Under the pieces are notes generated by a model. The model ran no database searches. It was not told where the DNA came from and saw only the letters and a program-made list of their open reading frames with translations. Shown here in pieces: positions 2,053 to 63,165 of a DNA stretch of 64,000 nt; within the stretch, counting starts at the first letter, position 1, and the number at the start of each line of letters is the position of its first letter. The stretch lies in the IMG/VR virus record IMGVR_UViG_3300042328_001905. One strand, written 5' to 3'. This DNA comes from an uncultured virus (IMG/VR IMGVR_UViG_3300042328_001905). Lineage: Duplodnaviria; Heunggongvirae; Uroviricota; Caudoviricetes. The position numbers and the translations under genes are program-made.

Positions 2053-2170
2053 ATTGTACTATAGAATTACTATTTAGTCAAGCACTTTTTTCTATTTAGT
2101 AAATTTTTACTATTTTTTAAAAAAGATCAAAGTATAGACGTATTCTATACTAAGATCTCTGTTTAGTCAA
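2053..2170 (-). promoter_or_regulatory. two tandem sigma70-type promoters upstream of the tRNA cluster
   Basis: TTGACT-17-TACAAT (2053-2081) and TTGACT-17-TAGAAT (2142-2170), both preceded by GTGC. Confidence 0.75.
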
Positions 2171-2178
2171 GCACTTTT

Positions 2179-2973
2179 TTACAATTCACCAAGATAATTT
2201 GCTACAGCAGGAAGATTTCCTTGGAAATGATAGGTCCCAACGTGTACACAATTGATCCACGGAGCCATCCAAACTTCAACTCCAATTTTTCTACACTGTT
2301 GACAAAAATGGTAATCTTCGCTAAGAACGCGATTAGATGCTTCATCAATTTCAACGTTGAAATATGAATGAATTTTTCTATCGCCACCAAAATGCGCAGT
2401 ACCAACGTGATCAGGTGTATACTCATATTGCGGGTAGGCTTCTTTGAATTTAGCAAATACTGATCTATTTGTCATCATCATACCAGTACCAATTTCAAGA
2501 ACTTGAAGAGGTTCTGTTACATTAAAATGGGTTGTTCCTGCAACTGGGTTAAAAACAATGTCACCACCCAATCTTTCTAGTTCACCAGCAGATATTTCCG
2601 GATTTTTAACTATCGCTTTCTTTATATTTTCCCATTTAATAGTTTTCTTAGGGTATGGAGCTCCTATAATATCTTTATCTAAAGCTAACATAGCAATAAT
2701 ATCCATTGGATTAAAACCAATATCAGCATCAATAAACATTAAATGTGAACAATCGGAACGCAAAAATTCATCTACAATATAATTTCTAGCTCGTTGGATT
2801 AGACTTTCATTAAATAAAAATGAAAATCTAACTTCAATACCATATTGCATACATGCAGATTGAAGGTCTAAACAAGATTTCATATATGTACCCAAACAGC
2901 TCCCGCCATACATTGGAGTACCAATAAAAAGTTTTTTACCAATAAATCTGTCTTTTTCTAAATTAATTTCCAT
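2179..2973 (-). CDS. GT-A fold glycosyltransferase-like protein
   Basis: FIGTPMYGG start, ESLIQRARN, DxD motif (FIDADI), LSEDYHFC. Confidence 0.75.
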   Translation of the reverse strand: MEINLEKDRFIGKKLFIGTPMYGGSCLGTYMKSCLDLQSACMQYGIEVRFSFLFNESLIQRARNYIVDEFLRSDCSHLMFIDADIGFNPMDIIAMLALDKDIIGAPYPKKTIKWENIKKAIVKNPEISAGELERLGGDIVFNPVAGTTHFNVTEPLQVLEIGTGMMMTNRSVFAKFKEAYPQYEYTPDHVGTAHFGGDRKIHSYFNVEIDEASNRVLSEDYHFCQQCRKIGVEVWMAPWINCVHVGTYHFQGNLPAVANYLGEL

Positions 2974-10989: not shown

Positions 10990-11131
10990 AATAACTCCAA
11001 TTACACTTTAATAAATTTTATTATACTATGATTCAGTAAAAAAAGAAAGCTTTTTATTTTATTCTATAAAACATATTAATATAATTTTAATATATCAACG
11101 CTTGACTAGAGAATATACAAGTATCTAGAAA

Positions 11132-11144
11132 AATCAATAACTTA
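11132..11144 (+). promoter_or_regulatory. IHF-consensus site
   Basis: AATCAATAACTTA matches WATCAANNNNTTR exactly. Confidence 0.45.
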
Positions 11145-11155
11145 CAAAAAATAGC

Positions 11156-11184
11156 TTGCTTTATTAAAAGTTTTAGGTTACTAT
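11156..11184 (+). promoter_or_regulatory. sigma70-like promoter facing the hairpin cluster, antisense to the flanking genes
   Basis: TTGCTT-17-TACTAT; the spacer end TTTAGGT recurs in other promoters here (56296-56324, 60977-61005). Confidence 0.5.
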
Positions 11185-11248
11185 ACAACTATGGGTTTTC
11201 TTCGGAACTCCTTCGTCGTTCCTTCGAAACATAATTAATGTAACAAAT

Positions 11249-11290
11249 TAGATTTCTGCGCAGCAGATTCCCGTAGGGAATTAAATTAAT
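11249..11290. repeat. 42-bp double-hairpin element, copy 1
   Basis: CTGC-GCA-GCAG and ATTCCC-GTA-GGGAAT; reverse complement matches 59759-59800 at 35/42 positions. Confidence 0.85.
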
Positions 11291-11304
11291 CGTACTTGAT
11301 TACG

Positions 11305-11694
11305 TTAATGCATTGTTGTATCATCTGGAATATCTAAATCGCTACCTGATTTAATCCCATCAATACTTTCTTGGATTTTTGCTGCTAGTTCCGAAGTTGG
11401 ATCCATATTTTGTAGTAATGCATCTAGGTATTCATACCCAAACATAATACTTGAATAAGTTGTAAATAGAATTTCATCCATTGAAAAATAAACTTCTTGA
11501 TAAGCAAAAGCTTTTCTTGTCATCCAATCTACTAAAACCAAATCTTCTTCTTCGGTATCAGTGTCATAATTAAAATAAAAAGTTTTAGGGAATTTTAAGT
11601 GTATTTTTTTATTTTTATAATCTTCAAAAACAAAAGCAATAATATCTTCACCGCTTTTCATTCTAACAATTTTTATATTAAAATTTTCTATCAT
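11305..11694 (-). CDS. hypothetical protein downstream of uvsW
   Basis: 129-aa ORF with GAGGA RBS; IKIVRMKSGEDIIA start typical of small T4-like phage proteins. Confidence 0.7.
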   Translation of the reverse strand: MIENFNIKIVRMKSGEDIIAFVFEDYKNKKIHLKFPKTFYFNYDTDTEEEDLVLVDWMTRKAFAYQEVYFSMDEILFTTYSSIMFGYEYLDALLQNMDPTSELAAKIQESIDGIKSGSDLDIPDDTTMH

Positions 11695-56141: not shown

Positions 56142-56260
56142 CTTTGTTTCTCCTTGAGAAATATTCAAATAAACTGTTGCAGAATATTTCTAATTATGAT
56201 TAGGACTTTTTCTTTTCCTGAAAAGCTACTAATAGTTGGTTTAAATTAACTCACAAAAAT

Positions 56261-56324
56261 CATGGTATAAAAAGTATTTATACCATGCAGTATATAGTCT
56301 AACCTAAAACTCTTAAAAAGTCAA
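56261..56324 (-). promoter_or_regulatory. sigma70-type promoter plus late promoter embedded in a hairpin
   Basis: TTGACT-17-TAGACT (56296-56324); TATAAATA (56275-56282) overlapping one arm of CATGGTATAAA/TTTATACCATG. Confidence 0.6.
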
Positions 56325-56332
56325 GCATTTTT

Positions 56333-57065: not shown

Positions 57066-57881
57066 ATGTCCAGCACAGATATTTATATCGAAACCCTCAA
57101 ACAAATTTCAATACATAATAAATATTTTTTGTGGTATATTAATATAATCAATAATGCCATTGCGAGAAAAGAAAAAATAGTTTTTAATTACAAAGAAAAA
57201 CATCATATATTACCTAAATCATTTAAACTGGGAGGAGAAACTGATAAATCGAATATTGTTATCTTAACAGCAAGAGAACATTATATATGCCATTTATTAT
57301 TAATTAAATTTTCTAAATCTTCGTATAAAACAAAAATGTATAGTGCATTATGGTGCATGGTTAATGGATCAAATATAAAAAGAAATCCACAAAGAAATTT
57401 TAAAATAAATTCTTATGTATATACCGATTTAAAATTAAATTTATCAAAAATTCGATCAGATAACATTAAAGGAGATAAAAACCCAAATAAATCGAAAGAA
57501 AGAAGGAAAATTTTATCGACTCTAATGAAAGGAGATAAAAACCCCATGAAAGGAAAACATCACACTGAATGCAGTAAACGAAAAATATCTATTGCAACAT
57601 CTGGAGAAAATAATCCATTTTTTGGAAAAAATCATACACAAGAATCTTTAGAAAAAATGAGAAACGCAAAAAAACCTCCGCAAACCCAAGAACACAAAAA
57701 TAAATGTAGATCAACTAGGTTAAAAACATTTTATTTTTTATCTCCATTTAACGAAATCGTAGAAATAAAAGATTTAAAATTATATTGCAAAGAAAATAAT
57801 TTACAATATAATTCTATGCTAAAAGTTAACAGAGGAGAACAAAATAATTATAAAGGGTGGATTAAAGCATCTCACCCGTAA
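57066..57881 (+). CDS. HNH homing endonuclease with NUMOD3-like repeats
   Basis: EKHHILPKS..GG..NIVILTAREHYICHLLL; repeated GDKNP/GENNPFFGKNHT; late promoter TATAAATA at 56993-57000; antisense to its neighbours. Confidence 0.9.
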   Translation: MSSTDIYIETLKQISIHNKYFLWYINIINNAIARKEKIVFNYKEKHHILPKSFKLGGETDKSNIVILTAREHYICHLLLIKFSKSSYKTKMYSALWCMVNGSNIKRNPQRNFKINSYVYTDLKLNLSKIRSDNIKGDKNPNKSKERRKILSTLMKGDKNPMKGKHHTECSKRKISIATSGENNPFFGKNHTQESLEKMRNAKKPPQTQEHKNKCRSTRLKTFYFLSPFNEIVEIKDLKLYCKENNLQYNSMLKVNRGEQNNYKGWIKASHP

Positions 57882-58989: not shown

Positions 58990-59304
58990 TTATAAATTCG
59001 CAACATACTCTTTATAAGCTGTTGTTCGTTTATCAATATTCCCATTCGGTAATCTAGGTAGATCTTCTGGATAATCGCTTGTATCTGGTTTAGAAGTTGC
59101 TGCAATATAGTGAGAAACTGTTGGCTGTACTTGCGGTTCAAATTTTTGTTTAAAACTTTCAAATGATTCAGCTAAAACTAAAAACGATTCTTTACTTAGA
59201 TGAACAATTGTTTCATTATTATAGGAAGCAACAGCATATAAGATATTGTTTTCATTAATTAAAACTTCTGCTCCGTTGTGATTTTTCGATTTTACTGTTA
59301 TCAT
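58990..59304 (-). CDS. hypothetical protein
   Basis: 104-aa ORF, GAGG RBS, promoter TTGACT-17-TAAAAT at 59323-59351. Confidence 0.7.
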   Translation of the reverse strand: MITVKSKNHNGAEVLINENNILYAVASYNNETIVHLSKESFLVLAESFESFKQKFEPQVQPTVSHYIAATSKPDTSDYPEDLPRLPNGNIDKRTTAYKEYVANL

Positions 59305-59365
59305 AATACCTCGTAATATTTTATTTTACTATATAGAATATAAATAGTCAAGTACAATTTAGTGC

Positions 59366-59394
59366 TTGACTAAAAATTGTTTTTAGTATATAGT
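59366..59394 (+). promoter_or_regulatory. sigma70-type promoter upstream of the candidate ncRNA
   Basis: GTGC-TTGACT-17-TATAGT, back-to-back with a leftward promoter. Confidence 0.75.
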
Positions 59395-59399
59395 AAAGA

Positions 59400-59702
59400 A
59401 AATGTGTCTGTATAAAGGTTGATACGCCGACTGATATCGTATTGATAACCTATTCACCATAAAAGTGTGTAGAATAGCTCTGTCTAAGAAAAAAAGAGGT
59501 AAAGACACCACCTCGTTACTTCTAGGAAACTAGATGAAATTATCAATCACTCCAAACAAGAGATGATCCAATTAGGCGCAGGATCTTTAAAATCGCTACA
59601 GGTGTGGAAAGCAGCAGAACCAATCTTGGGTTGATAATGATAAAATACCTGTCTTATTCTAAAAAAATGAATTTGGGCTCCGGATAGCCTTATTCAACCT
59701 TA
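59400..59702 (+). ncRNA. candidate structured non-coding RNA, family unknown
   Basis: No ORF in the track; closing helix AAGGTTGA/TCAACCTT, several nested helices and a GAAA tetraloop. Confidence 0.6.
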
Positions 59703-59721
59703 AAAAAGATAAATATAAAAA

Positions 59722-59800
59722 TGCGCTTCCGAAGGAAGCGATGCGAGCGAAGCGAAGCATTAAATTAGTTCCCTTCGGGAACCCGCTTCGCGGAAATCTA
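59722..59800. repeat. GNA-triloop hairpin cluster including copy 2 of the 42-bp element (59759-59800)
   Basis: CGCTTCC-GAA-GGAAGCG, overlapping GCGAAGC x2, GTTCCC-TTC-GGGAAC, CCGC-TTC-GCGG. Confidence 0.85.
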
Positions 59801-59854
59801 TTGACGTAAATTGAATTTCATAATACAATAAATAAAATTAAAAGGATGTTAATT

Positions 59855-60013
59855 ATGGATAGACAAAAAATTATTGTTGCCTTAGAAACTTTAAGGGATT
59901 ATAATAGATGGAGAAGAGGGCAGCTAAAAGTGATGCCCAACGCAACATTAATAGGAGAATCAATTGAATTAGTGATTGATTTAATATCAACAGAAATCTT
60001 AAATAAAAAATAA
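59855..60013 (+). CDS. hypothetical protein (52 aa, not in the ORF track)
   Basis: AAGGA RBS; MDRQKIIVALETLRDYNRWRRG... Confidence 0.6.
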   Translation: MDRQKIIVALETLRDYNRWRRGQLKVMPNATLIGESIELVIDLISTEILNKK

Positions 60014-61296: not shown

Positions 61297-63165
61297 ATGA
61301 CAAAACATATTCAACAAACTTATCAAGTTCTTGATGAGATTGAACATATTAGAAAAAGAACTGGCATGTATGCTGGTTCTACTTCAATCCAAACAAGCCA
61401 AGAATGGGTTTATAATACTCAATCTAAAAATATGGAAAAGCGAGATATTTCATATATCCCCGCTTTTATTAAAATCTTTTCTGAAATTCTTGATAATTCT
61501 ATTGACGAAGGAAAAAGAGCGCCTGATGTATTAAATCAAATTAAAGTGGATATTACATTTGATGAAATTTCTATTCAGGATAATGGTCGAGGTATTCCCG
61601 TAGAAATTCATGATCAAACTGGAACATATATTGCAGAAACAGTTTTTTCTAATTTGCGCGCAGGTTCCAATTTTAATGATGATGAAGATCAATCATTAAT
61701 CGGTACTAATGGTGTTGGTTCAACATTAACTAATGTTCTTTCTACAAATTTTAAAATTGAATCTTGCGACGGTAAGAAAAAATTAACTCAAGATTTCTGG
61801 AATGGGATGCGAGAGCGTTCAGAACCTAAAATTAAAGAATATTCTAAAAATGGAACTAAAATTACATTCACGCCAGATTATGAATTTTTTAAGTTAACAG
61901 GTTTAGATGCAGACCATATTTGTAAAATTCAAAAGAAAGTAATTGATGCTGCTGCAAATAATTTAAATATTAAATTTTATTTTAATGGTGAATTAATTAA
62001 ATTTAAATCTTTTGATGATTATATTTCGTTATATTCTACTGAGTATTACACAGATAATACTGATGATTGGAAAGTTGGTATCAGTTCTTCGGATGGATTT
62101 GAGCAAATTTCTTTTATCAATTCGGTAGAAACTTATCAAGGTGGAACTCATGTCAATTATGTTGTTGATCAAATCACAACTAAACTTCGTGAGCACTTTA
62201 AGAAAAAACATAAAGTGGATGTAAAACCTAGTGATATTAAAAATCATTTTAGAGTTTATATTGCTGGTACAGTAAATCGACCAAGATTTTCTAGTCAAAC
62301 AAAAGAAAATATGATTAGTTTGCCAACCGAATGGAAAACTTCCTGGAGCGTTAGCGATAAATTTATTAAAAACATTCTTAAATCCGAGATTATTCAATCT
62401 ATTTTGGATTGGGTTCAGGCTAAAGAACGTGCTGCTGAAGCTGCTGAATTGCGTAAAGCTAATAAAAATTTAGATAAAGCAGATCCACGTAGAGTTGAAA
62501 AGTTCCATGATGCATCTACCAAACAACGTAATGAAGCAATGTTATTTTTAGCAGAAGGAGATTCTGCACTTTCAGCATTGTTATCTGGTAGAGATCCAAA
62601 AACAATGGCAGCATTTCCGTTACGAGGTAAACCTGTTAATGTACGACCTATGGAATTAAAAGATATTCTTGATAATAAAGAATTTAAAAGCATCATGACA
62701 ATTACTGGGCTTCAATTTGGTGTTCCTGTTAATTCTATCGAAGATATTCGGTTTGGTAAAATTGTCCTGTCTACAGATTCGGATTTAGATGGATTTCACA
62801 TAAGAGCATTATTATTAAATGCGTTTTATAAATTTTGGCCAGAATTATTTTCTTTAGGTGTTATTTATATTTTAAATACACCAATTGTAAAAGTTAAGTA
62901 TAAAAAAGAAATATTAAGTTTTTACACTTTAGATCAATTTAATGATTGGAAAAAAGATCATATTGGAGAAAAATATGAATCCAAATATTATAAAGGTCTA
63001 GGAACCAGTTCTAGTAAAGAATGGAAAATTTATTTGTCCGAATTGGCTAATAATTTAGAACAATTAATTTCATTAAAAGACGAGACTGCACTTTTTGATT
63101 TACATTTTTCTAAAGAAACTGGTAGTACTGATAAGAGAAAAGTTTGGTTGGGTATTGAAGGGTAA
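61297..63165 (+). CDS. gp39: type II topoisomerase large subunit (gp39+gp60 in one ORF)
   Basis: EHIRKRTGMYAGS, EILDNSIDE, DNGRGIP, GTNGVG, LAEGDSA, PLRGK, DSDLDG, YYKGLG. Confidence 0.95.
   Translation: MTKHIQQTYQVLDEIEHIRKRTGMYAGSTSIQTSQEWVYNTQSKNMEKRDISYIPAFIKIFSEILDNSIDEGKRAPDVLNQIKVDITFDEISIQDNGRGIPVEIHDQTGTYIAETVFSNLRAGSNFNDDEDQSLIGTNGVGSTLTNVLSTNFKIESCDGKKKLTQDFWNGMRERSEPKIKEYSKNGTKITFTPDYEFFKLTGLDADHICKIQKKVIDAAANNLNIKFYFNGELIKFKSFDDYISLYSTEYYTDNTDDWKVGISSSDGFEQISFINSVETYQGGTHVNYVVDQITTKLREHFKKKHKVDVKPSDIKNHFRVYIAGTVNRPRFSSQTKENMISLPTEWKTSWSVSDKFIKNILKSEIIQSILDWVQAKERAAEAAELRKANKNLDKADPRRVEKFHDASTKQRNEAMLFLAEGDSALSALLSGRDPKTMAAFPLRGKPVNVRPMELKDILDNKEFKSIMTITGLQFGVPVNSIEDIRFGKIVLSTDSDLDGFHIRALLLNAFYKFWPELFSLGVIYILNTPIVKVKYKKEILSFYTLDQFNDWKKDHIGEKYESKYYKGLGTSSSKEWKIYLSELANNLEQLISLKDETALFDLHFSKETGSTDKRKVWLGIEG

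What the first reader, a model, noticed from the sequence alone, without database searches (positions are those of the whole stretch)
59366..59702. Unassigned multi-helix RNA of about 300 nt behind its own promoter
Seen: after a good TTGACT-17-TATAGT promoter comes an ORF-free stretch with many pairings: AAGGTTGA(59415)/TCAACCTT(59694) closing helix; ATTGATAA(59441)/TTATCAAT(59540); CTATTC/GAATAG; GAGGT/ACCTC; TCTAG-GAAA-CTAGA (GNRA loop); GATCC/GGATC; ACAGGTGT(59598)/ATACCTGT(59645); GGCT/AGCC. Two possible pseudoknots: loop AGACAC(59503) with 5' GTGTCT(59404), and loop GGCG with CGCC(59425). I do not see tmRNA, RNase P, group I/II intron or hammerhead signatures. Inference: a possibly new phage ncRNA class, either a ribozyme/scaffold or an R-loop primer RNA, since the DNA-hairpin cluster follows immediately.
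Basis: partly seen in the sequence, partly recalled or inferred. Interest (0 to 1): 0.8.

Follow-up and report, generated by a model that had tools for sequence, protein, structure and literature searches.

The report
Swappable early structured RNA cassette
An uncultured T4-like phage carries, behind one of its own early promoters, about 330-400 bases that encode a folded RNA rather than a protein, and a sister phage holds a different folded RNA in the same slot; what either RNA does is unknown.

Summary
The promoter, the ORF-free stretch and all eight named pairings are real. The pairings alone are no better than chance: MFE z = -0.97, and local windows of the body score like the flanking genes. 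No Rfam family matches.

A 16-mer scan found one diverged homolog (75% identity, same synteny, promoter kept). It changes the verdict. Of 7 window-MFE pairs changed on both sides, 6 still pair (null mean 1.0, P = 0.0004). A revised fold has 11 compensatory pairs in 69, against 0-2 in slid controls.

- Supported: reader helices CTATTC/GAATAG and GAGGT/ACCTC.
- Refuted: ATTGATAA/TTATCAAT.
- Weakened: the closing helix.
- Invariant, so untested: three helices.

An 80-nt core is 96% identical, and the small plus-strand ORFs are not conserved.

A sister lineage keeps the promoter and the 3' hairpin module. Its body is an unrelated ~480-nt RNA with 15 compensatory pairs and z = -2.8.

Best reading: an exchangeable, early-transcribed structured ncRNA in a PeSL-like promoter/stem-loop cassette, function unknown. 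The main rivals are a long leader and a 26-aa minus-strand peptide ORF inside the core. Only two lineages carry this RNA, and no transcript data were available.

The parts
59323..59351 (-). Divergent early-type promoter (TTGACT-17-TAAAAT) for the 104-aa gene 58990-59304. Its -35 lies back to back with that of P1 and forms an inverted repeat with it.
   Evidence: The palindrome gives z -4.3 to -6.0.
59366..59394 (+). P1: sigma-70-type early promoter GCTTGACT-17-TATAGT. The transcript start is inferred near 59401.
   Evidence: Conserved in the diverged homolog and in the sister lineage. The start site is inferred; no transcript data.
59401..59720 (+). Body of the non-coding RNA: no conserved ORF, 34-43% GC, A-rich on the plus strand.
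   Evidence: No substitution among six near-identical strains, only one A-run indel at 59489. 71% identity to L042 overall.
59421..59443 (+). Hairpin A (GAUACG/CGUAUU).
   Evidence: 2 compensatory pairs of 6.
59444..59484 (+). Helix B (59444-47 with 59481-84) enclosing hairpin C (59450-60 with 59465-77).
   Evidence: B has 1 compensatory pair and 1 one-sided change. C has 3 compensatory pairs of 11.
59496..59514 (+). Loop AGACAC is the proposed pseudoknot partner of GTGTCT 59404-09. Read on the minus strand, it is a terminator-like hairpin followed by a T-run.
   Evidence: 2 compensatory pairs of 5. Minus-strand terminator scan.
59521..59534 (+). Hairpin E (TCTAG-GAAA-CTAGA).
   Evidence: Stem invariant. 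The loop becomes GTGAAA in L042, so the GNRA loop is not conserved.
59553..59632 (+). Near-invariant core. It includes hairpin F (59562-69 with 59581-88) and the 5' half of hairpin G.
   Evidence: 77 of 80 positions identical to L042, against 70% and 55% in the flanks. Contains a 41-nt identical block.
59598..59652 (+).
   Evidence: All 12 pairs invariant, so untested. Patch seen.
59668..59696 (+). Hairpin H: UGAAU/AUUCA around GGGCU/AGCCU.
   Evidence: 1 compensatory pair, 1 one-sided change and 2 broken pairs of 10.
59724..59740 (.). GC-rich hairpin T1. On the minus strand it is a canonical intrinsic terminator (hairpin followed by a T-run).
   Evidence: An analogous minus-strand terminator lies in L054 at 1927-1915.
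59745..59793 (+). 3' hairpin module. It folds either as tandem hairpins 59768-82 and 59783-93 or as the long helix 59746-53/59784-91. It is homologous in all three lineages.
   Evidence: nhmmer E = 3.5e-6. 2 compensatory pairs. 76% similar copy at 11233-11290 on the minus strand, behind gene 11305-11694.
59801..59829 (+). P2: promoter TTGACG-17-TACAAT for the downstream genes (52-aa gene from 59855).
   Evidence: Present in the sister lineage. No equivalent found in L054.
59543..59623 (-). Rival feature: a 26-codon minus-strand ORF with a TTG start, encoding a hydrophobic peptide, inside the invariant core.
   Evidence: Open in both lineages. The 3 core substitutions fall on third codon positions of this frame and are synonymous (read). 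No ATG and no Shine-Dalgarno sequence (read). No promoter in the scans. No homolog.

Best explanation
The stretch is a stand-alone gene for a plus-strand structured non-coding RNA. It is carried as the cargo of a promoter/stem-loop cassette in the early region of an uncultured, AT-rich T4-like phage.

PROPOSED MECHANISM
1. Host sigma-70 RNA polymerase starts at P1 (59366-59394) soon after infection.
2. The transcript folds into a row of local hairpins (A to H, 59421-59696).
3. It ends, or is attenuated and stabilised, at the GC-rich hairpin module 59724-59793, just before the next promoter P2.
4. The working part is probably the 80-nt near-invariant core (59553-59632: hairpins F and G plus conserved single strands), acting as a binding surface for a protein or RNA partner.
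5. A sister lineage keeps the promoter and hairpin module but carries an unrelated structured RNA in the same slot. The RNA therefore behaves like exchangeable accessory cargo, as ORFans do in PeSL cassettes. This points to host takeover or counter-defence rather than a core replication function.

SHOWN: promoter family membership, absence of a conserved plus-strand ORF, compensatory base changes, the conserved core, synteny, and cargo replacement.

INFERRED: transcription itself, RNA ends, independence from the downstream mRNA, trans action, and any target.
For: PROMOTER
- P1 belongs to a promoter family of 8 sites against 2.3 expected. The family also drives tRNA genes.
- P1 is kept in L054 (11 of 12 matches) and in the sister lineage.

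NOT CODING ON THE PLUS STRAND
- There is no plus-strand ORF of 30 aa or more.
- The 23-aa and 10-aa ORFs each stop at codon 4 in L042.

COMPOSITION
- GC is 34-43%, against 20-23% at the promoters and 30.5% for the window.
- AT skew is positive, as in the plus-strand genes to the right.

CONSTRAINT
- No substitutions in 541 nt among near-identical strains, against 23 variable sites in 2809 flanking nt. My own arithmetic gives 4.4 expected and Poisson P(0) of about 0.012.

COVARIATION
- The fold was predicted from the window alone, then scored on L042. Of its 79 pairs, 23 changed. Seven changed on both sides, and 6 of those still pair (permutation mean 1.0, P = 0.0004).
- The revised fold has 69 pairs, 11 of them compensatory, against 0-2 in six slid controls.
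- It has 17 G-U cells and no A-C cell. This favours the plus strand, though the fold was predicted on that strand.

CORE
- 77 of 80 positions are identical.

SLOT
- Synteny is PhoH, regulator, 104-aa gene, divergent promoters, RNA, hairpin module, 140-aa gene. It holds in the window, in L054 and in the L065 group.
- The bodies are unrelated: local alignment score 29 against 27 +/- 5 for shuffles.
- The sister RNA has z = -2.84 and 15 compensatory pairs of 144, against 0-1 in slid controls.
- The window-type RNA is absent from 5 sister-lineage records, one of them 71% complete.
Against: - Only two distinct lineages carry this RNA, so all covariation rests on one pairwise comparison.
- The revised fold was chosen with that alignment in view.
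- Thermodynamic support for the body is nil.
- There is no transcript evidence of any kind.
- The hairpin module has no U-tract on the plus strand, so termination is inferred from PeSL precedent only.
- L054 shows no P2-like promoter. In that lineage the RNA may simply be a long leader.
- The most conserved part (hairpins F and G) never varies, so it is untested as structure.
- That conservation is also compatible with a minus-strand 26-codon ORF in which all 3 substitutions are synonymous.
- No target was found: duplex energies with 75 translation-start regions in the window equal those of shuffled cores.
Confidence: 0.55

Rival explanations
1. Long structured 5' leader (cis element). P1 transcripts run through the hairpin module into the downstream early genes, and the folded region tunes their stability, translation or read-through rather than acting as a separate RNA.
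For: - The hairpin module has no U-tract on the plus strand.
- L054 has no sigma-70-type promoter between the module and its next gene, so that gene may depend on P1.
- Tandem early promoters are common in T4-type phages (general knowledge; review PMC2988021 seen only in the search listing).
Against: - The window and the sister lineage both have a good P2 right after the module.
- The first downstream gene differs between lineages (an extra 132-aa gene in L054) while the RNA stays.
- PeSL stem-loops without U-tracts terminated strongly in reporter assays (PMC2839356, passages read).
- The body can be swapped for an unrelated RNA in front of the same downstream genes.
Confidence: 0.15
2. The conserved core encodes a small hydrophobic peptide on the minus strand: TTG at 59623 to the stop at 59543, 26 aa in the window and 30 aa in L042. 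The P1 transcript is its fully overlapping antisense partner, as in a type I toxin-antitoxin pair or a small membrane-protein gene with antisense control.
For: - The frame is open in both lineages, with 24 identical residues.
- All 3 substitutions in the 80-nt core are synonymous third positions of this frame (read).
- The peptide is hydrophobic: mean Kyte-Doolittle 1.75.
- A terminator-like hairpin with a T-run lies 30-50 nt after its stop on the minus strand (59514-59496).
- Another minus-strand terminator lies upstream in both lineages.
Against: - There is no ATG and no Shine-Dalgarno sequence (read).
- No promoter was found upstream on the minus strand.
- The C-terminal tails differ through a frameshifting indel.
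- Synonymous change is lower than in neighbouring genes: 3 of 24 against 138 of 464, P = 0.045. A nucleotide-level constraint is therefore needed anyway.
- The T-run after hairpin D is degraded in L042.
- Hairpins A-C, with 6 compensatory pairs, lie beyond that terminator.
- No homolog was found among proteins of 30-154 aa. The Atlas gave scores of only about 0.8.
Confidence: 0.12
3. Replication-origin primer RNA. The P1 transcript forms a persistent R-loop, as at T4 oriF/oriG, or folds like the ColE1 RNA II pre-primer.
For: - A strong promoter sits at a switch of transcription direction, next to replication genes: the topoisomerase II large subunit at 61297-63165.
- RNA II is also a multi-hairpin RNA overlapped by antisense transcription (recalled, not tested).
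Against: - The region downstream of P1 is GC-enriched, not an AT-rich unwinding element.
- The body is replaced by an unrelated sequence in a sister lineage, and such exchange is not expected of a core replication function (inference).
- No iterons or tandem repeats were seen in the self-comparison.
- Cumulative skew follows gene direction and shows no separate origin signal.
Confidence: 0.05
4. No dedicated function: a spacer or the decayed remnant of an ORFan between two promoter/stem-loop cassettes, with the covariation arising by chance from a single comparison.
For: - Folding is no better than shuffles.
- Only two lineages are available.
- Stop codons in all three plus frames occur at about the random rate (expectation from my own arithmetic).
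Against: - 6 of 7 doubly changed pairs are kept (P = 0.0004).
- An 80-nt block is 96% identical while neighbouring proteins are 52-89% identical.
- No substitutions among the near-identical strains.
- GC is above the genome mean.
- The window is otherwise tightly packed with genes.
Confidence: 0.05

Closest known systems
PeSL (promoter-early stem-loop) cassettes of T4-type phages (Arbiol et al. 2010, PMC2839356, passages read; Comeau et al. 2014, PMC4122927, abstract read)
   Same: - A strong sigma-70-like early promoter with an AT-rich upstream region lies next to stable stem-loops.
- The motif is repeated at several intergenic sites of one genome.
- It flanks exchangeable cargo in a variable region.
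- The cargo differs between related phages while the flanking regulatory motifs stay.
   Different: - Described PeSL cargo is protein-coding ORFans. Here the cargo is a 320-480-nt structured RNA in two unrelated versions.
- The stem-loops here are two or three tandem hairpins with UUC/UAC loops, not the GGGG...CCCC type.
- Only one further copy of the hairpin-plus-promoter module was seen in this window.
- Recombination and mini-circles were not tested.
T4 stable RNAs rnaC and rnaD (species 1 and 2) in the tRNA region
   Same: Phage-encoded, promoter-driven stable RNAs of unknown function in a T4-type genome, with homing endonuclease genes nearby. This comparison is recalled from general knowledge and was not checked in a call.
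   Different: - Those RNAs are about 120-140 nt, lie inside the tRNA cluster and are processed with the tRNAs.
- This RNA is 57 kb from the tRNA cluster in the window, is longer, and has its own promoter and hairpin module.
Large phage- or prophage-associated ncRNAs without known function (GOLLD, ROOL) and the ~10,000 candidate structured RNAs predicted in IMG/VR (Fremin et al. 2023, PMC10690425, abstract and outline read)
   Same: Gene-sized, covariation-supported RNAs carried by phages, with no biochemical role assigned.
   Different: - No Rfam model, GOLLD and ROOL included, matches at E up to 10.
- Core strings of both RNAs were not found in the 6 supplement files that could be searched. 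Three files were not searched, so prior listing there cannot be excluded.
sRNAs of giant Pseudomonas phages 201phi2-1 and phiKZ found by cappable sequencing (Poppeliers et al. 2024, PMC11512511, abstract read)
   Same: Phage-encoded non-coding transcripts that fill gaps between transcription units, one of them conserved across genera.
   Different: - A different phage group with different promoters.
- Those RNAs have direct transcript evidence, which is lacking here.
- No sequence relation was tested.
Type I toxin-antitoxin pairs with fully overlapping antisense RNA (Ibs/Sib type)
   Same: A short hydrophobic ORF is covered by a strongly promoted antisense RNA. This applies to the rival reading only, and the comparison is recalled.
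   Different: - No promoter, Shine-Dalgarno sequence or ATG for the ORF.
- The antisense RNA would be more than 300 nt and structured far beyond the ORF.
- No homolog in any search.

Membership tests
Any Rfam 15 family (tmRNA, RNase P, group I/II introns, self-cleaving ribozymes, 6S, SRP, GOLLD, ROOL, IMES and others) | Covariance-model score at or above the family's gathering threshold | tested here: not met
   Whole window: only 6 tRNAs pass. In 59250-59900 at E up to 10, the best hit is VrrA at 22.9 bits against a threshold of 50, on the minus strand over the promoters. Homolog and sister loci: 0 hits at E up to 0.1.
PeSL cassette | Strong sigma-70-like early promoter with an AT-rich upstream region | tested here: met
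   P1 and P2 each match 10 of 12 consensus positions. The GCTTGACW family has A-rich upstream tracts.
PeSL cassette | Stable stem-loop adjacent to the promoter, acting as terminator or attenuator | tested here: inconclusive
   Hairpins 59724-59793 abut the -35 of P2, with z = -2.5 and 2 compensatory pairs. Termination activity was not testable here.
PeSL cassette | Motif repeated at many intergenic sites of a variable region, similar enough to recombine | tested here: inconclusive
   There are 8 promoter copies in 64 kb, but only one further copy of the hairpin module (76% over 59 nt at 11233-11290). The rest of the genome is not held.
PeSL cassette | Cargo between motifs differs between related phages | tested here: met
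   Window/L042-type and L065-type bodies are unrelated between a conserved promoter and hairpin module. A 195-aa ORF with repeated KAKLSIAMQGK motifs sits just upstream of the RNA promoter in L075. My guess that it is a homing endonuclease was not tested by a family search.
PeSL cassette | Cargo is a protein-coding ORFan | tested here: not met
   No conserved ORF on the transcribed strand.
T4-type R-loop origin (oriF/oriG) | Promoter followed by an AT-rich DNA unwinding element | tested here: not met
   GC is 34-43% downstream of P1, above the window mean of 30.5%.
Type I toxin-antitoxin | Small hydrophobic ORF with its own promoter and ribosome-binding site, overlapped by an antisense RNA | tested here: inconclusive
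   The ORF is present and conserved and an antisense RNA is plausible from P1. The scans found no promoter. No Shine-Dalgarno sequence or ATG is seen on reading the sequence. No homologs were found.
Structured RNA in general | Compensatory base changes above controls | tested here: met
   6 of 7 doubly changed pairs kept, P = 0.0004. 11 compensatory pairs against 0-2 in slid controls. This rests on two lineages only.
Structured RNA in general | Folding energy below dinucleotide shuffles | tested here: not met
   z = -0.97. Local windows range from -1.67 to +1.16.

The most novel reading that the evidence does not exclude
Large T4-like phages keep a dedicated early-expression slot: a fixed promoter and a fixed hairpin terminator module. 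Into this slot they swap unrelated, gene-sized structured RNAs, much as they swap ORFans. These would be RNA 'morons' that act in trans as decoys or scaffolds against host factors or anti-phage defence, with the invariant 80-nt core as the binding surface. The two RNAs found here would then be the first two members of a diversifying class of RNA-based host-takeover or counter-defence effectors.
Probability: 0.2. Interest if true: 0.85.

Novelty: new variant of a known kind. Interest (0 to 1): 0.6.

Why it matters
Early regions of large phages are read almost entirely as lists of small unknown proteins. This locus shows that a promoter-to-hairpin unit in such a region can carry a conserved, folded RNA instead. 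It also shows that related phages can exchange one RNA for an unrelated one at the same address.

If that is general, part of the phage early-gene 'dark matter' is RNA, and protein-centred screens for host-takeover or anti-defence functions miss it. Unchecked notes from other windows of this scan point the same way.

The two alignments give concrete starting models for covariance searches in marine metagenomes and metatranscriptomes.

Tried and rejected
- RFAM: the whole window and the region at E up to 10 gave nothing beyond tRNAs and noise. The same held for homolog and sister loci.
- GENBANK PHAGES, blastn distant mode: no match for the region or for the sister RNA. The nearest cultured relatives are remote: the topoisomerase is 53% identical to a Ralstonia jumbo phage.
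- OWN ASSEMBLY: not held. The nearest record, G001, has no match.
- SCANS WITH FLANKING PROTEINS:
  - The 140-aa protein gave 16 loci. The 12 diverged ones lack the region next to that gene, and the L010 gap is a tRNA cluster.
  - The 104-aa and 52-aa proteins found only the same four contigs.
  - The metagenome scan with the 104-aa protein found 2 loci, both 99% identical.
- DNA PATTERNS: the 29-mer, 17-mer and 19-mer found only known carriers or chance hits. The 16-mer found L042. The 20-mer in prokaryote genomes gave one chance hit in a 61% GC Armatimonadota MAG.
- RNA RUNS: no RNA holder was listed.
- DECAYED GENE: stops occur at about the random rate in all plus frames.
- SMALL PLUS-STRAND ORFS: not conserved.
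- MINUS-STRAND ORF: no homolog among proteins of 48-154 aa or 30-47 aa. Atlas scores were about 0.8 with low recognition.
- ANTISENSE TARGETS among 75 translation-start regions of the window: best duplex -30.7 kcal/mol against a shuffled-core minimum of -30.5 +/- 3.0.
- STRAND BY ALIFOLD ENERGY: -60.2 on plus against -58.4 on minus, not decisive.
- ORIGIN SIGNAL IN SKEW: none separable from gene direction.
- FREMIN 2023 SUPPLEMENTS: core strings absent from the 6 files searched; 3 files were not searched.
- EARLIER SCAN NOTES: none by place or for the window sequence. One irrelevant hit for the sister RNA.
- NOT ATTEMPTED: a covariance model of the RNA.
Full report
SETTING

The window is 30.5% GC and densely coded. 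It carries 7 tRNA genes at 52-2032, PhoH, a homing endonuclease and a topoisomerase II large subunit. The closest GenBank phages are remote T4-like and jumbo phages.

The finding lies in the 541-nt gap 59305-59845, the longest of the six ORF-free gaps listed. The gap separates a leftward block (PhoH, an 87-aa regulator-like protein, a 104-aa protein) from a rightward block. The rightward block holds a 52-aa protein, a DUF6433 protein, a WYL_2 protein and the topoisomerase.

CHECK OF THE OBSERVATION

The promoter is real. TTGACT-17-TATAGT lies at 59366-59394. It belongs to a family, GCTTGACW, with 8 sites against 2.3 expected and 0 of 100 shuffles reaching 8. Two members sit directly upstream of tRNA genes.

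No plus-strand ORF of 30 aa or more exists in the gap.

On the single sequence, however, this is not more than chance.
- The MFE z-score is -0.97, with 19 of 100 shuffles folding as well.
- 100-nt windows over the body score -1.67 to +1.16, like the neighbouring genes.
- Complementary 8-mers number 3 against 0.78 expected, reached by 8.1% of shuffles.
- Only two pieces stand out: the back-to-back divergent promoters (z -4.3 to -6.0) and the 3' hairpin cluster (z about -2 to -2.5).

No Rfam family matches.

HOMOLOGS

Six near-identical copies turned up: four IMG/VR contigs and two metagenome contigs, 99-100% identical.
- They show no substitution in the 541-nt gap, only a one-base change in an A-run.
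- The 2809 flanking coding bases hold 23 variable sites. By my arithmetic 4.4 are expected in the gap, giving P(0) of about 0.012.

Protein-anchored scans at first found only relatives that lack the region.

A 16-mer from the middle of the stretch then found contig L042.
- It is 75% identical over 59300-59712.
- Gene order is the same.
- The promoter is intact.
- Neighbouring proteins are 52-89% identical.

WHAT THE HOMOLOG SHOWS

1. The element is not coding on the transcribed strand. The 23-aa and 10-aa ORFs each stop at codon 4 in L042.

2. Conservation is uneven. It is 70% in 59398-59552, 96% (77 of 80) in 59553-59632, and 55% in 59633-59720.

3. Substitutions respect base pairing.
   - I used the fold predicted from the window alone, so it was not tuned to L042. 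Of its 79 pairs, 23 change in L042.
   - Seven pairs change on both sides, and 6 of those remain standard pairs. Permuting substitutions among stem columns gives a mean of 1.0 (P = 0.0004).
   - ATTGATAA/TTATCAAT has 3 unpaired pairs and 1 gap of 8, so it is refuted.
   - The closing helix loses its two outer pairs.
   - Three helices never vary.
- A revised fold has 69 pairs in 11 helices, 11 of them compensatory, against 0-2 in six slid controls. It adds hairpin A (59421-43), helix B (59444-47/59481-84), an extension of hairpin C, and an outer stem on the last hairpin (59668-72/59692-96).
   - Caveats: the revised fold was chosen with the alignment in view, and everything rests on two lineages.

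4. On the pseudoknots, AGACAC/GTGTCT stays pairable through a C-to-U change while its loop neighbours change freely. This is suggestive only. GGCG/CGCC overlaps covarying hairpin A.

STRAND

Four things favour the plus strand:
- the promoter family;
- positive AT skew, as in the rightward genes;
- 17 G-U cells with no A-C cell in the fold, though the fold was predicted on that strand;
- the match of the 3' module to a copy that sits after a minus-strand gene at 11.2 kb, read on that gene's sense strand.

Alifold energies do not decide the question.

THE 3' MODULE

The segment 59724-59793 folds into GC-rich hairpins, with 2 compensatory pairs in L042. There is no U-tract on the plus strand.

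The first hairpin is a canonical terminator on the minus strand, and L054 has an analogous one.

Together with P2 (59801-59829), this matches the composite promoter/stem-loop motifs called PeSLs in T4-type phages. Their stem-loops terminated transcription in reporter assays, and they flank exchangeable cargo (PMC2839356, passages read; PMC4122927, abstract).

THE SISTER LINEAGE

A scan with the regulator alignment returned 80 loci, the best of 287 relatives.
- 5 of 80 carry the window-type RNA.
- 10 of 80 form a sister group (regulator 69-70% identical) with the same synteny and an ORF-free gap of 475-843 nt.
- I found neither RNA in the other 65.

In the sister group the promoter and the 3' hairpin module are homologous to the window's. 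A profile of the sister alignment hits the window only at the hairpin module, 59724-59802, apart from weak matches (E 0.4 or more) on promoter stretches (E = 3.5e-6).

The body is unrelated: local score 29 against 27 +/- 5 for shuffles. It is a well-supported structured RNA of about 480 nt.
- z = -2.84.
- 15 compensatory pairs of 144, against 0-1 in slid controls.
- A 180-nt invariant core.
- No Rfam hit and no GenBank phage match.

The window-type RNA is absent from five sister-lineage records, one of them 71% complete. One address therefore holds two different RNAs.

In three of the sister loci a 195-aa ORF is inserted just upstream of the RNA promoter. Its repeated KAKLSIAMQGK motif looks to me like a Seg-type homing endonuclease, but I ran no family search on it.

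RIVALS

The strongest caveat is a minus-strand ORF inside the core: TTG 59623 to 59543, 26 aa, hydrophobic.
- For it: the ORF is open in both lineages, and all three core substitutions are synonymous third positions in its frame.
- Against it:
  - It has no ATG and no Shine-Dalgarno sequence (read).
  - The scans find no promoter.
  - Its tails differ by a frameshift.
  - Its synonymous change is lower than in neighbouring genes (3 of 24 against 138 of 464, P = 0.045).
  - It has no homolog.
- It also cannot explain hairpins A-C.

A leader reading is kept alive by the missing U-tract and by the absence of a P2 in L054.

The R-loop primer idea fits poorly with the GC-enriched body and the cargo swap.

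No antisense target was found in the window.

COMPARISON AND NOVELTY

The architecture works like a PeSL cassette, but the cargo is RNA, which the PeSL papers I read do not describe. The RNA belongs to no catalogued family.

It may be among the roughly 10,000 unnamed candidates of Fremin et al. 2023. The searchable supplements did not contain it, and three files could not be searched.

Unchecked notes from this scan describe similar non-coding early cassettes in other large phages. They agree with this reading but are not independent evidence.

VERDICT

Function is unknown. My best guess is an exchangeable, trans-acting early RNA.

Noticed in passing
L065:1440-2075 (minus strand of the locus); also L066, L068-L075: A second, unrelated structured RNA of about 480 nt sits in the same slot in a sister phage lineage. 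It has 15 compensatory pairs, z = -2.84, a 180-nt invariant core, no Rfam hit and no GenBank phage match.
   Followed up: yes
window 57066-57881: The homing-endonuclease gene (PHROG 655) between the PD-(D/E)XK-like gene and PhoH is missing from otherwise 97-99% identical relatives (L001, L002, L021, L022, L033, L034). This looks like a recent mobile insertion.
   Followed up: partly
L075:1408-1995 (minus strand); also L068, L069: A 195-aa ORF with repeated KAKLSIAMQGK motifs is inserted just upstream of the sister RNA's promoter, and its 3' end runs into the -35. It may be a Seg-type homing endonuclease; no family search was run. Other members of the lineage lack it.
   Followed up: partly
window 10990-11304: A second ORF-free gap (315 nt) holds several UNCG-type hairpins behind gene 11305-11694 and a GCTTGACT promoter at 11100. 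Its tandem hairpin pair is 76% similar to 59759-59817 read on the opposite strand.
   Followed up: partly
window 2125-2185 (minus) and 56255-56330 (minus): Two GCTTGACT promoters are followed within about 50 nt by a hairpin and a T-run. These could be very short promoter-to-terminator units, attenuators or tiny RNAs.
   Followed up: no
window 61308-61377: Against relative L034, 18 differences cluster in 70 nt at the 5' end of the topoisomerase gene, in an otherwise ~99% identical region. This suggests a small recombination or gene-conversion patch.
   Followed up: no
window 59543-59623 (minus): A 26-codon hydrophobic ORF with a TTG start lies inside the invariant core. It is open in both lineages and shows only synonymous differences.
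   Followed up: yes
L010:2170-2525 (also L018-L020): In relatives whose 140-aa protein is 65% identical to the window's, the space upstream of that gene block holds a cluster of about four tRNA-like genes instead of the RNA cassette. The count was read by eye; ARAGORN was not run there.
   Followed up: no
L054:2025-2423: The L042/L054 lineage has an extra 132-aa ORFan between the hairpin module and the 54-aa gene. No sigma-70-type promoter precedes it.
   Followed up: partly
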